DNA from: Eledone cirrhosa
Taxonomy: Eukaryota
Assembly (NCBI GenBank): GCA_964016885.1
Contig: OZ024743.1
Location: 290,594,001 to 290,658,000 of the forward strand
Direction: 5' to 3'
Length of the DNA: 64,000 nucleotides
Positions 6,511 through 59,530 of the stretch are shown piece by piece (the stretch's first letter is position 1; the number at the start of each line of letters is the position of its first letter). The notes under the pieces were generated by a model. The model searched no databases and had not been told where the DNA came from. It worked only from the letters and a program-made list of their open reading frames with translations. Position numbers and translations under genes: made by a program.

Positions 6511-6680
6511 TTCTACAGGACGAGAACTATTTCATTTGGGAGAGATCATCAGGAGAACTTCTCCCGAATGAAACAGTTCTAGTAATTTAGAAGTCATTTC
6601 TATATTAAATATTTATACTCTGCTATGTATTGACTACCTTACTTACTGTGGCTACCCACCATTTGAACCCGGGATAAACT
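6511..6680. mobile_element. head-to-head HHR palindrome family, copy 1 (tail on right arm)
   Basis: ttctacaggacgagaactatttcat..atcatcagg / ttctcccgaatgaaacagttctagt..gaag followed by a tail ending aacccgggataaac. Confidence 0.75.
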
Positions 6681-6989
6681 TATATATGTATATATATATA
6701 TATATATAAATATTAGTTGTAATAGAATGAAGCGAAATTTCATTTCTCACTCTTAGTACGGCACTTACTTAAATGTAAGTATGTATGTATACGTACATAC
6801 ATATATGTATACAGACGTACAGTAGCATGCATATATATATATATATATATATATATATATATATATATATATATATATATATATATATATATATATATAT
6901 ATATATATATATATATATATATATATATACATACAGGTACACATATATATATGTACGTATCAGTTTAGCGGACGTTTATTATAACGCCC

Positions 6990-7169
6990 GCTTTGTCCGT
7001 TTGTCTACAAACGGACAGCCTGAAAATCGCTAGAAATAGCCGTCGAATGGGCTTGAGATCTGCCGTCGGGGTCTTGAACATTTTCCTATTACCGACTCCA
7101 CTACCGAAACTATTGAGTACTCTGGTGCGTTATGGTCCACCTGACTCCTTGCCACACTTCCTTCGTTAT
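6990..7169 (+). repeat. dispersed repeat family (also 21545-21700 -, 57015-57130 +), probably a retroelement 3' end
   Basis: Shared gagatctgccgtcggggtcttgaac..gtactctggtgcgttatggtccac..ccacacttcc. Confidence 0.7.
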
Positions 7170-7202
7170 ATATATATATATATATATATATATATATAGG
7201 TA

Positions 7203-7384
7203 CGTTATTCCGGGTTGTATCGGAGGTAACCACAGTAAGTAAGGTACTTAATACATAACAGAGTATAAAAGTTTTAATATAGATGAGATTCTACAGGACT
7301 AGAACTGTTTCATTCTTTAGAAATCACCAGATTATTTCTTAAGAATGAAACAGTTCTTGTCCTGTAGAATCTCATCTATATTAA
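7203..7384. mobile_element. head-to-head HHR palindrome family, copy 2 (tail on left arm)
   Basis: Near-perfect inverted repeat 7274-7384; the left extension is the reverse complement of the copy 1 tail. Confidence 0.8.
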
Positions 7385-56184: not shown

Positions 56185-56247
56185 ATTTTATCTGATGAAA
56201 GCACACCATAATTTAACTTGGTATCCTTGAATTATGTATAATAAAAT
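56185..56247 (+). ncRNA. hammerhead in inverted pLTR of family D (GAAA->GAAT)
   Basis: attttat-CTGATGA-aagcacacca..tggtatcctt-GAAt-tatgta-TA-ataaaat, with a 7-bp stem I. Confidence 0.65.
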
Positions 56248-56409
56248 AAATATGGTTTTATAAATATAGTTTCCATTTGTTAATATCGTATATATATATA
56301 TATATATATGCAGAGAGAGAGAGAGAGAGAGAGAGAGAGAGAGAGAGAGAGAGAGAGAGAGAGAGAGAGAGAGAGAGAGAGAGAGAGAGAGAGAGAGAGA
56401 GAATGTTAT

Positions 56410-56450
56410 CTACAGGACTAGAAATGTTTCATTCGCATAAAATCATCAGG
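56410..56450 (-). mobile_element. single arm of the HHR palindrome family
   Basis: ctacaggactagaaatgtttcattcgcataaaatcatcagg. Confidence 0.65.
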
Positions 56451-59437
56451 CAATTTTACAAGGATGTGATTCTTAATGTTTGTTTGCGAACACATAATTA
56501 ATTATTCAGGCATTATGTGCCTTATTTACTCTGATACTTCATCATTTCTGATAACCCAACCAATTTCATTCATTTCTTCATTTAAATTCTTATTATACAT
56601 AATCATATATTCATACAGTTACTTATGGACAATTATATTGATGCTTGGTATTGCTTGAATTGACATACATCACCGGAAAAATCAGAGAAACAGGAATAAC
56701 ACAAATTAGAGCAATCAAAGCAAGTACTTATATTATCGACGGAAGGCAGTTCTGGAATAAGCTAATGTGGATAATCCAATTAGACCTTTGCGTTTGGAAT
56801 GACTCTGATGTCAAAGTAATGTTGTTTAATAGTAAATGTCAGTACATCAGTTATTTAATTCTCCTTTATCCATAAATATCTCGGCGCCAACATTGCTGAC
56901 ATGGGGCTGACGGCTAGGGCTCTAAAGCACATTATTACAACGAAGCGTTAGGTAGAGCTGGGTATAGAAATAAAATTAAATATATTGATAATAATAAGAG
57001 CTCTGCCGTCATAATACGAGCTCTGCCGTCAGGGTTAAACTTTTTTCTATTACCCACTCTACTACCCCAAGTATTGACTAGTCTGGTGCGTTATGGTCCA
57101 TCTGGTTCATTACTACACTTCCTTCGTTATATATATATATTTATATACATATGTACACTCACAAAAAACAACAGTTTAAAATGTCTTAACTGAGAGTATT
57201 CGTTTTCGGTATAATTGTGTTTCTACTGAATGTCCTACTATAATTAGCTTATTTCCTTGTAGTCCTACAGTGTTCGCATCAACGGCTACCTTTATGGGTC
57301 TGTGTAAATTCCACTGTGTGTATGTTTCTTTGGGTGTGCGAATTGCTAGCAGAGTGTATAGTAGTGGTTAATATGTACGTATTTCATTTTAGCAGTTGTT
57401 ACCAGGTATCTACTTCTAGTGTTAGTGTAAGCCTTGCTTAGAGTCTATACACCCGGGAAAATGTGCCGTCTTCGCCGTCAACATTTTCTTATTCAGAATG
57501 TCTATGCTGAATCTCAGTTAGAAGCACATTATATTTCTGGATAAATCGACAGGCATGATATACCATTATATCGCTTGAATGTTTTAGTAGTAAGTAACAT
57601 AACCAAAGAAAACTGAATCTACATCAACTATATTAAAAATGATGGATATAAGCTGGATATAAACACAACTGGATATAAACACATTATTTTAAATGTTAAC
57701 AAATAATGGCTATTTGTGTCTCGTTTTTAACTTTCCATGTTGTACAATTAGTCAGTGTATTCTGTCGATTAAATCATTGTAACAAACTATATATAACCAA
57801 CGATGTCCATCAATAAGGAAGATATTGTTTTAAAATGTGTTTCAATGGTGAATATCTCATTTAGTTTTTCTGAGTGACAAAGTCATTACAACCTCTTCAC
57901 TCAGGTTAAATCTTGACATGTGTTATCAGAAAGTATCTTATAAAAGATTTCGTAAATAAACTATTTTTATTTTACAAACCTGATTGGCTATTATATCTAT
58001 ATCAATATAACAGCGTGGTTCAGAATAAATTTGTTAATGGACCCATTAGGTTTATGTATAATAAACGTACATAAAATATCACTCCAAGTATTTTAAACTG
58101 TTATCATGTAAAAATAGCATCAGTGTAGTTGCTGCTGACTACATGTATTTCAAGGTTTCTAGCGGTTATTTACTTCGGCATACTAAAAGATAAACGGCCC
58201 AATCTCAAGAAATTTCTAGACAATCTAATTTTGGTTATTTACACAGAAGGAGCCTATGTTTATGTTTATTATTCATGAAAATATTTAATATGGATCTATA
58301 TAAAAATTAATATACATTTAGATGTTCGGTTAACAGATTAATATTAGTGATGTTATTTTATTTTATTTTATTTCGTATTAGAAGCAAATATATTAATATC
58401 TAAACAGTTATATCCACTTCAACGTAAACATACATATATACGAGGCAAATTGACCGACTCGTTAGCGCGTAGAAGCGAAAGCCTTGCGATATTTATATCA
58501 GCATTCCCCGCTTTGATTTCAAATCGCGCCGAAGTTATGAATGATATTGATAATTTAGAGAGAGTTAAATAAATTAAGTTTCGAAAACTTTGGTCAATGA
58601 TTCTAATCACTTGCTTTATTCATCTTTCTAACGCTGTTTCTCTCATTTGAAGGAATTGGGCGCAATAATATATAGAAAGTGAAGGATTCACTCAGAATTG
58701 AAAACTTACAAGACATCGTAAATCTTCAGTGCTTCTAGAACCTCATAAAAATTTGGCGTAACGGGATGCATGAGAACGAGATGATATATCGTAGTAAATG
58801 ATTCCCGGTCTTCCATTTCGAGTTTAAATGTTTGAACAGAAGCACAGTTTAAGTATAGCATTATATCATACTTAATATATATATAAAACATCGACCTACG
58901 TATTATACGTTCCAAATTCATGCGCACCTTATAAGAATATATGCTGCATTAAGTCGATGAAAATATTTTGAAGTTACATGTTTCCTTCTTCTAAGAACAT
59001 TGAATGTTACTTCCTTTTACATCGGTTGCTTCGACGTCATCGTCATTATCTGCTACATTACGTTTATTTTTTTTAGACTTATCTCTATCATCTCTGTCAT
59101 CGTCCATTTCTTTTCAGTTTATACTTCTTTTTAATTCAATGCATGTATAATTACATATATCTCTGTTTCACAATGTATTTCTATGCATATTTCATACACA
59201 CACACACATGTATATGTACACACACACATATATATATATAAGTGTGTGTCTCTGTGTGTCTGTGTGTGTGTGTGTGTGTGTGTGTGTGTGTGTGTGTATG
59301 TGCGGATGTGTGTGTGTATGTGCGTGTGCGTGTGCGCATGTGTGTGCGTGTATGTGTCGGGTTCATTAGGGCGTAATCACAATAGGTAATGTATTCAATA
59401 TAGACATCAACATTTAATTTCGAAATGGTTTCAACGA

Positions 59438-59530
59438 GACTAGAATTGTTTGATTCGAAGGAAACCGTCGGCCTTCCTGATAATTTCTTTCCAATAAAGC
59501 AGTTCTAGTCCTGCAGAAGCCGTTTCTATA
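59438..59530. mobile_element. head-to-head HHR palindrome family, diverged copy 5
   Basis: gactagaattgtttgattc.. / ccttcctgataatttc..cagttctagtcctgcagaag. Confidence 0.65.

What the first reader, a model, noticed from the sequence alone, without database searches (positions are those of the whole stretch)
6511..59530. Dispersed family of ~90-170-bp palindromes made of two head-to-head hammerhead ribozymes
Seen: five palindromic copies (6511, 7274, 22059, 23428, 59438) and one half copy (56410), all next to microsatellites. The consensus arm folds as a type I HHR: cttc-CTGATGA-t ttc NNNN gaa t-GAAA-cag ttctagtc ctg-TA-gaag. The stem II loop varies between copies (tccc/ttaa/taaa/tcat) while ttc/gaa is mostly kept. 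The arms always join near the 5' edge of the ribozyme, so the consensus has a ribozyme on each strand, although individual copies have damaged cores. Established: minimal HHRs occur in PLE pLTRs, and ribozymes of both polarities are typical of viroid-like RNAs. Inference: this is either a non-autonomous ambisense-ribozyme retroelement that spreads as a unit, or a strong RT stop/inversion hotspot at the ribozyme.
Basis: partly seen in the sequence, partly recalled or inferred. Interest (0 to 1): 0.82.

Follow-up and report, generated by a model that had tools for sequence, protein, structure and literature searches.

The report
Twin-copied Penelope retrotransposon stubs
These palindromes are short stubs of an abundant Penelope-type jumping gene, rebuilt at each insertion rather than spreading as a two-ribozyme unit, and their joints suggest that both cut DNA strands likely copy the capped start of the element's RNA, an unsolved step in how these elements move.

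Summary
The five palindromes and the half copy are real. They are not an ambisense-ribozyme unit. They are the shortest insertions of a Hydra-type Penelope-like element (PLE), whose intact parent (713-aa RT plus GIY-YIG) I found elsewhere in the genome. The layout (inverted arm, tail on one side, (TA)n target) is published. Junctions differ: 25 spacers among 50 listed loci, of 1,075 genome-wide. Five of 37 sampled pairs join far upstream. No window copy has two intact cores, and the arms would pair with each other.

The hotspot is real but is probably the RNA's capped 5' end, not a ribozyme stop. A TATA box lies 30-33 nt upstream. A non-templated G precedes 28 of 72 and 35 of 52 such ends, against 3 of 65 control ends. 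Only 3 of 27 places start exactly at the ribozyme cut site. The tailless arm often keeps more 5' sequence than the tailed arm, which favours two separately primed cDNAs over fold-back.

No RNA or cleavage data were available. This scan has already noted the same twin-priming reading on other DNA of this genome.

The parts
6500..6554 (-). Short inverted arm, older subfamily. Core boxes present, most of the 5' strand of stem I missing; ends in (TA)n.
6559..6679 (+). Long arm with tail. Starts after the CTGATGA box, cut-site triplet damaged; followed by (TA)n.
7202..7330 (-). Long arm with tail, young subfamily (96-98% to the parent); core A6 changed to G.
7327..7388 (+). Short arm with damaged core; ends at the proximal end site in (TA)n.
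22059..22085 (-). Very short inverted arm, cut off just after the GAAA box.
22088..22139 (+). Long arm lacking the start of the core, with an internal deletion from stem III to the end of the tail.
23428..23472 (-). Inverted arm, GAAA box damaged, no tail.
23476..23535 (+). Short arm, CTGATGA box damaged; ends in (TA)n.
56409..56450 (-). Single arm beside (GA)n. Core boxes intact, stems I and III broken.
59349..59469 (-). Old, degenerate long arm with tail (about 70% to the 6511 copy).
59473..59531 (+). Short arm with damaged core.

Best explanation
Each palindrome is a dead-end insertion of a Hydra-type Penelope-like element, likely made when both nicked strands of a (TA)n target prime separate DNA copies of the 5' end of the element's probably capped, uncut RNA and the two copies are then joined head to head. 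Shown: the parent element, its layout (TATA box, hammerhead, tail, RT-EN ORF, long 3' UTR, second TATA-hammerhead copy), two fixed 3' end zones, a sharp 5' boundary at the first two bases of stem I, a frequent non-templated G there, diverse micro-homologous junctions, and arms that share subfamily markers. Inferred: transcription starts at that boundary; the extra G is a copied cap; one cDNA starts at the distal (tail) site and one at the proximal site; both run off the 5' end only 60-135 nt away; their 3' ends anneal through 0-4 nt, often with small templated inserts, and each then templates the other's second strand. A ribozyme motif on each strand is a by-product. Priming at the 3' copy of the same repeat would give the longer arms with scattered junctions.
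For: Parent: the tail runs into an RT ORF in 4 loci. L180 is complete, with a 713-aa ORF and Hydra motifs (against PMC8557442 section 11). Abundance: 11,177 exact matches of a 32-mer, control 0. Boundary: of 100 arms unbiased for the 5' end, 27 end at reference 432-435, 0 at 428-431, 26 at 436-466 and 47 further upstream (first stem I base = 433). TATA starts 30-33 nt upstream in four subfamilies. Extra G in (AT)n flanks: 28 of 72 places in the young family and 35 of 52 GGCTTC-starting places in an older one, against 3 of 65 ends at 446-454; Fisher p 1e-6 and 1e-13. In the older family the templated base is C (20 of 22 promoter-bearing rows) and stem I snap-back would give T or A. Uncut template: 3 of 27 places start exactly at the cut site, 9 more ambiguous (43 raw matches genome-wide), against 482 raw matches at 433/434. 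Two cDNAs: 34 of 37 pairs are one long plus one short arm; of 30 pairs near the boundary the short arm keeps more 5' sequence in 16, both arms reach it in 8, the long arm keeps more in 5 and 1 is equal. Same source: loop II agrees between arms in 44 of 47 loci, 45% expected. L289 and L290 are two-armed insertions whose right arm continues from the tail into the ORF, so they were copied from the mRNA's 5' repeat. In vitro, another PLE nicks and extends both strands, starts at two sites and uses uncut RNA (PMC11167929).
Against: ORF-linked copies mostly do not start at the boundary. Of 30, only 2 start near it with an inverted arm, about 21 carry 80 to more than 500 bp of upstream sequence, and the rest start at 416-418 or 476 or inside the tail. 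A longer-than-unit template (circle, tandem read-through or template jump) is therefore also needed and is unexplained. The complete copy L180 starts about 3-6 nt upstream of the boundary. In the young family the extra G is confounded by stem I snap-back, which does occur (5 junction rows, 3), and by annealing to the partner arm. In the older family slippage in a G run cannot be excluded. The control pattern leaves less room for inserts. Microhomology makes arm ends uncertain by 1-4 nt. The G tallies are hand counts of the first 100 listed rows. The transcription start, the cap and cleavage were not measured.
Confidence: 0.75

Rival explanations
1. One cDNA folds back on itself (or the RNA self-primes on an antisense template, as proposed in PMC3846280) and the second arm is a copy of the first.
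For: Arms share markers (44 of 47 loci). Many junctions are mini-hairpins or carry short snap-back extensions.
Against: The tailless arm cannot template the tailed arm, yet it keeps more 5' sequence in 16 of 30 pairs and both arms reach the boundary in 8. Some junctions carry an extra G on both arms (L012, L111, L132). A boundary tied to a sense-strand TATA box fits sense RNA.
Confidence: 0.11
2. The boundary is an RT stall or processing site at the ribozyme inside a longer RNA, not the transcription start.
For: The boundary coincides with the 5' edge of stem I. 47 of 100 arms and most ORF-linked copies extend upstream. A 3' splice-site-like CAG lies at the boundary, and a Penelope intron ends there in D. 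virilis (PMC4209133).
Against: RT has already copied the partner strand of stem I when it arrives there (inference). TATA spacing is conserved. The extra G is specific to this site. Copies usually keep the AG and show no shared upstream exon.
Confidence: 0.09
3. A non-autonomous double-hammerhead (ambisense) element that is transcribed and spreads as a palindromic unit.
For: 1,075 loci have both arms reaching the start of stem I. Some junctions recur (the commonest in 10 of 50).
Against: 25 different spacers in 50 loci. The same junction appears on different loop-II backgrounds and with either arm trimmed. The units lack the promoter. The hairpin would sequester the ribozyme. No window copy has two intact cores.
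Confidence: 0.03
4. Ordinary random 5' truncation and inversion with no special site.
For: 5 of 37 pairs join far upstream at unrelated positions.
Against: 27 of 100 arms end in a 4-nt window with none in the 4 nt upstream. The extra G is site-specific.
Confidence: 0.02

Closest known systems
Hydra-clade EN+ Penelope-like elements (Craig et al. 2021, PMC8557442; passages, section 11 and supplement searches seen)
   Same: C-terminal GIY-YIG, DKT, CxCx5C linker, CxxC and CxH motifs, no GxKF/Y, hammerhead in the terminal repeat, (TA)n target, inverted 5'-truncated copy with a one-sided tail.
   Different: RWR in place of RWK; about 6 kb because of a 3.2-kb microsatellite-rich 3' UTR; tail about 65-75 nt rather than 30-40; hammerhead unlike that listed for Hydra-1_Obim; three short probes found no copy of this family in the supplement.
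Adineta vaga Penelope insertions with inverted pLTRs and junction palindromes (Arkhipova et al. 2013, PMC3846280; parts 1-4 of 5 read)
   Same: Head-to-head inverted pLTR, overlap at the junction, optional tail, TATA and Inr-like motifs in the pLTR.
   Different: That paper proposes self-priming on an antisense template and leaves the question open. The junction statistics here favour two cDNAs from sense RNA with a fixed, probably capped 5' end.
PAc Poseidon PLE in vitro (Frangieh et al. 2024, PMC11167929; parts 1-2 of 4 read)
   Same: Two internal RT start sites that define the tail, both strands nicked and extended, uncut RNA as template, hammerhead near the ORF start.
   Different: Different clade. 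The parts read do not link the two nicks to the inverted arms or mention a cap-derived G.
Minimal PLE hammerheads (Cervera and De la Pena 2014, PMC4209133; parts 1-2 of 4 read)
   Same: Type I core, unpaired base before stem II, palindromic loop III, predicted dimer. Opposite-strand pairs 100-700 bp apart are already reported as truncated PLEs.
   Different: Here the pairs abut (0-20 nt), and stem II is only 3 bp.
L1 twin priming and reverse-transcribed cap G (Kojima 2010, PMC2912911; two passages seen)
   Same: Two target ends prime on RNA, cDNAs anneal by microhomology, extra G at full-length 5' ends.
   Different: L1 inverted parts come from different stretches of the RNA (recalled). Here both arms copy the same stretch, giving a palindrome.
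Viroid-like ambisense RNAs and non-LTR retrozymes (PMC7229834 passages; bioRxiv 10.64898/2026.07.22.740005 part 1 of 5)
   Same: Type I hammerhead; PLE-derived non-coding repeats.
   Different: Retrozymes are head-to-tail tandems. These units are head-to-head, have no fixed junction and show no sign of copying as units.

Membership tests
EN+ Penelope-like element | Single ORF with RT and GIY-YIG endonuclease | tested here: met
   713-aa ORF in L179/L180 with YRDD and a C-terminal Y..YIG motif. Pfam GIY-YIG hit is weak, E 0.012, below cut-off. 1,404 homologues at E<=1e-20, unnamed.
EN+ Penelope-like element | Pseudo-LTR or partial tandem, optional inverted copy, one-sided tail | tested here: met
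   L179-L182; 34 of 37 pairs long plus short.
Hydra clade | DKT, CxCx5C linker, CxxC and CxH motifs, no GxKF/Y | tested here: met
   against section 11
Hydra clade | N-terminal RWK motif | tested here: inconclusive
   RWR at residue 38
Hydra clade | Insertion into (TA)n | tested here: met
   29 of 30 tails followed by (TA)n; the other runs into the ORF
Hydra clade | Placement in an RT phylogeny with reference PLEs | not tested
   No reference proteins were fetched; the clade call rests on motifs.
Type I hammerhead ribozyme | CUGANGA/GAAA core, three stems, NUH triplet, covariation | tested here: met
   Hammerhead fold -5.3 against MFE -5.6 kcal/mol. The cofold of two copies is the dimeric hammerhead at -21.2. 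Stem I is AGATTC/GAATCT, GGCTTC/GAAGCC or AGCTTC/GAAGCT in different subfamilies. No Rfam hit.
Type I hammerhead ribozyme | Self-cleavage | not testable with these tools
   Few genomic copies start at the cut site; this says nothing about cleavage of RNA that is not copied.
Ambisense-ribozyme replicon or non-LTR retrozyme | A fixed unit that is copied as a unit | tested here: not met
   25 spacers in 50 loci; identical junctions on different backgrounds
Ambisense-ribozyme replicon or non-LTR retrozyme | Expressed RNA of both polarities or circular RNA | not testable with these tools
   No run on record as RNA was listed.

The most novel reading that the evidence does not exclude
The hammerhead starts at nucleotide +1 of the capped mRNA and works as a switch and pairing device. 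Uncut, two RNAs from one locus pair through the palindromic CUAG loop, and a dimeric PLE protein copies one from each nick to the cap, which solves second-strand synthesis by joining the two cDNAs. Cut and religated, the RNA becomes a circle whose more-than-unit copies are the promoter-bearing, ORF-containing elements.
Probability: 0.2. Interest if true: 0.75.

Novelty: new member of a known kind. Interest (0 to 1): 0.45.

Why it matters
How PLEs build their inverted ends and finish the second strand is named as open in PMC8557442 and PMC3846280. More than a thousand young, tiny junctions with a fixed 5' boundary give a statistical handle on it. They favour twin priming on sense, probably capped and uncut RNA over the published antisense self-priming idea, and they give direct predictions for the existing in vitro PLE system. 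The element type and its layout are known, the exotic ambisense-ribozyme reading fails, and the scan has already noted the same mechanism elsewhere in this genome.

Tried and rejected
A6-to-G change as an editing or RT hotspot: my first query carried it, which biased. Genome-wide it is 158 matches against 9,018, and 47 of the 100 listed lie in one tandem array. There is no A>G excess in 224 arms (9 A>G, 26 T>C). Rejected.

Later homogenisation of arms: arm-to-arm differences are 44 in 2,523 positions (1.7%) against 1.07% copy-to-majority, so there is no sign of it.

Non-autonomous 585-bp element as parent: it is the 3' end of the full element beyond a long microsatellite.

Finding the parent through PF01541: 30 loci, none with this family's 3' end within 1.5 kb apart from a short stub in one. 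Pfam on five window PLE ORFs gave 0 hits. PDB gave nothing meaningful.

Expression: no RNA holder listed, which is no evidence either way. No reads or contigs were laid, so independent read support for the window copies is open.

Splice-acceptor reading of the boundary: kept only as part of rival 2.

Literature: searches showed no paper reporting a cap-derived G or twin cDNAs for PLE inverted ends. Only listings were seen for most hits, subscription papers are largely missing, and bioRxiv supplements were closed.

Full report
Observation. The window is G000:C4:290594001-290658000 in a 3.0-Gb, microsatellite-rich genome. The six sites are homologous, and the five palindromes fold far better than shuffles. 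Each is lopsided: a short arm ending 10-30 nt after the hammerhead, and in four cases a long arm with a tail. One window copy (7202-7388) belongs to a young subfamily; the others are older or too short to place. None of the 11 arms passes my hammerhead descriptor, no pair has two intact cores, and Rfam has no hit.

The ribozyme motif is still credible in the family. From a real young copy the hammerhead fold is -5.3 kcal/mol against an MFE of -5.6, and two copies cofold as the dimeric hammerhead through the CUAG loop at -21.2. Stem I shows compensatory changes between subfamilies while loop II drifts. Cleavage is untested.

Parent. A 32-mer from the arm has 11,177 exact matches. Some copies run upstream for 430 bp or more to a (TA)n(TG)n tract. 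In four loci the tail runs downstream into an RT ORF. L180 is a complete element: hammerhead, tail, 713-aa ORF, 3.2-kb microsatellite-rich 3' UTR, then TATA box, hammerhead and the short end. The protein has DKT, YRDD, CxCx5C, a GIY-YIG-like motif, CxxC and CxH, and lacks GxKF/Y. These are the Hydra-clade marks of PMC8557442 (section 11), with RWR for RWK. I took the Hydra label from earlier scan notes and checked the motifs; no tree was built. An inverted 5'-truncated copy with a one-sided tail is the published PLE layout (PMC8557442 passages; PMC3846280 parts 1-4). Opposite-strand hammerhead pairs were already ascribed to truncated PLEs (PMC4209133).

Junctions. I fetched the first 100 places, which are unbiased for the 5' end. 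With the first stem I base numbered 433, 27 of 100 arms end at 432-435, none at 428-431, 26 at 436-466, 6 at 410-427 and 41 further upstream (one duplicate locus dropped). Of 37 head-to-head pairs, 30 join at or just inside the boundary, 2 at 421-427 and 5 far upstream; 34 are one long plus one short arm. Genome-wide, 1,075 loci have both arms reaching position 434 within 10 nt. The 50 listed show 25 spacers, the commonest 10 times (hand count). Identical junctions sit on different loop-II variants. The palindrome is therefore remade at each insertion. It lacks the promoter, and as RNA its arms would pair with each other.

What the boundary is. A TATA box starts 30-33 nt upstream of stem I in four subfamilies. 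Among single arms abutting (AT)n, a non-templated G lies directly before the element in 28 of 72 places in the young family (first 100 of 482 rows) and in 35 of 52 GGCTTC-starting places in the older one (first 100 of 208 rows, 82 places). The control is 3 of 65 ends at 446-454 (first 100 of 341 rows); these are hand counts, tested. In the young family stem I snap-back could also give G, and it does occur. In the older family the templated base is C (20 of 22 promoter-bearing rows) and snap-back would give T or A, so a copied cap is the one cause that covers both. An extra G from the cap is known for L1 and SVA (PMC2912911 passage). Copies starting at the ribozyme cut site are rare: 3 of 27 places exactly, 9 ambiguous. 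This matches the uncut template seen in vitro (PMC11167929). L289 and L290 are two-armed insertions whose right arm continues from the tail into the ORF, so these two were copied from the mRNA's 5' repeat.

One cDNA or two. A fold-back copy cannot hold more than its template. Among 30 pairs near the boundary, the tailless arm keeps more 5' sequence in 16 and both arms reach the boundary in 8; only 6 fit simple fold-back of the long arm. Several junctions have an extra G on both arms. The arms share loop II in 44 of 47 loci (46 of 49 rows, one locus listed three times; 45% expected), with no sign of later homogenisation. Both cDNAs therefore come from the same RNA or from RNAs of the same source, and I cannot separate those. 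PMC3846280 instead proposed self-priming on an antisense template and left the matter open.

Against my reading. Of 30 ORF-linked copies, only 2 begin near the boundary with an inverted arm; about 21 carry upstream 3' UTR and promoter. L180 begins 3-6 nt upstream of the boundary. A second, longer-than-unit template is needed; circles after ribozyme cleavage were proposed in PMC4209133 but are not shown here. No RNA run was listed and no reads were laid.

Verdict. This is a new family of a known PLE clade in a known insertion layout. The ambisense-unit idea fails. The junction evidence for twin priming on capped RNA was not found in the nine paper searches listed under Tried and rejected and makes an open mechanistic step testable. 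Several earlier notes of this scan reached the same reading on other DNA of this genome; those notes are not independent support.

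Noticed in passing
G000:C28:30.57-30.69 Mb and probably beyond (L258): Large head-to-tail array of 78-bp units made of the same hammerhead (about reference 417-495). 42 of 47 cores in 4 kb are intact. The strand excess suggests about 2,500 units. It would give a retrozyme-like multimer able to form dimeric hammerheads.
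   Followed up: partly
window 2227-6413: Another PLE with a 1,198-codon open frame on the minus strand (2739-6332) and 424-bp inverted ends.
   Followed up: no
window 7624-15804: PLE related to the parent (37-48% protein identity) with about 3-kb inverted arms and microsatellite-rich ends.
   Followed up: no
window 28273-28676, 43806-43942, 44011-44455, 32209-32548, 34370-34426: Other head-to-head palindromes from unrelated repeats. The left arm of 32209 holds a CTGATGA box on the minus strand.
   Followed up: no
window 6215 (+), 2425 (-), 43335 (-): A different hammerhead-like core (CTGAAGAG...GAAA) in the ends of the 2227-6413 element and at 43335.
   Followed up: no
L180 tail (reference about 497-526): Small bulged hairpin just past the proximal end site, with further hairpins near the distal site.
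   Followed up: partly
L031-L060, L180: The 3' UTR holds a diverged internal duplication of about 135-190 bp (about 75% identity) upstream of the promoter and a 3.2-kb TA/TG tract. Many copies break off in this tract.
   Followed up: no
L290: Two-armed copy that jumps from codon 151 of the ORF to the promoter region of the 3' repeat.
   Followed up: no
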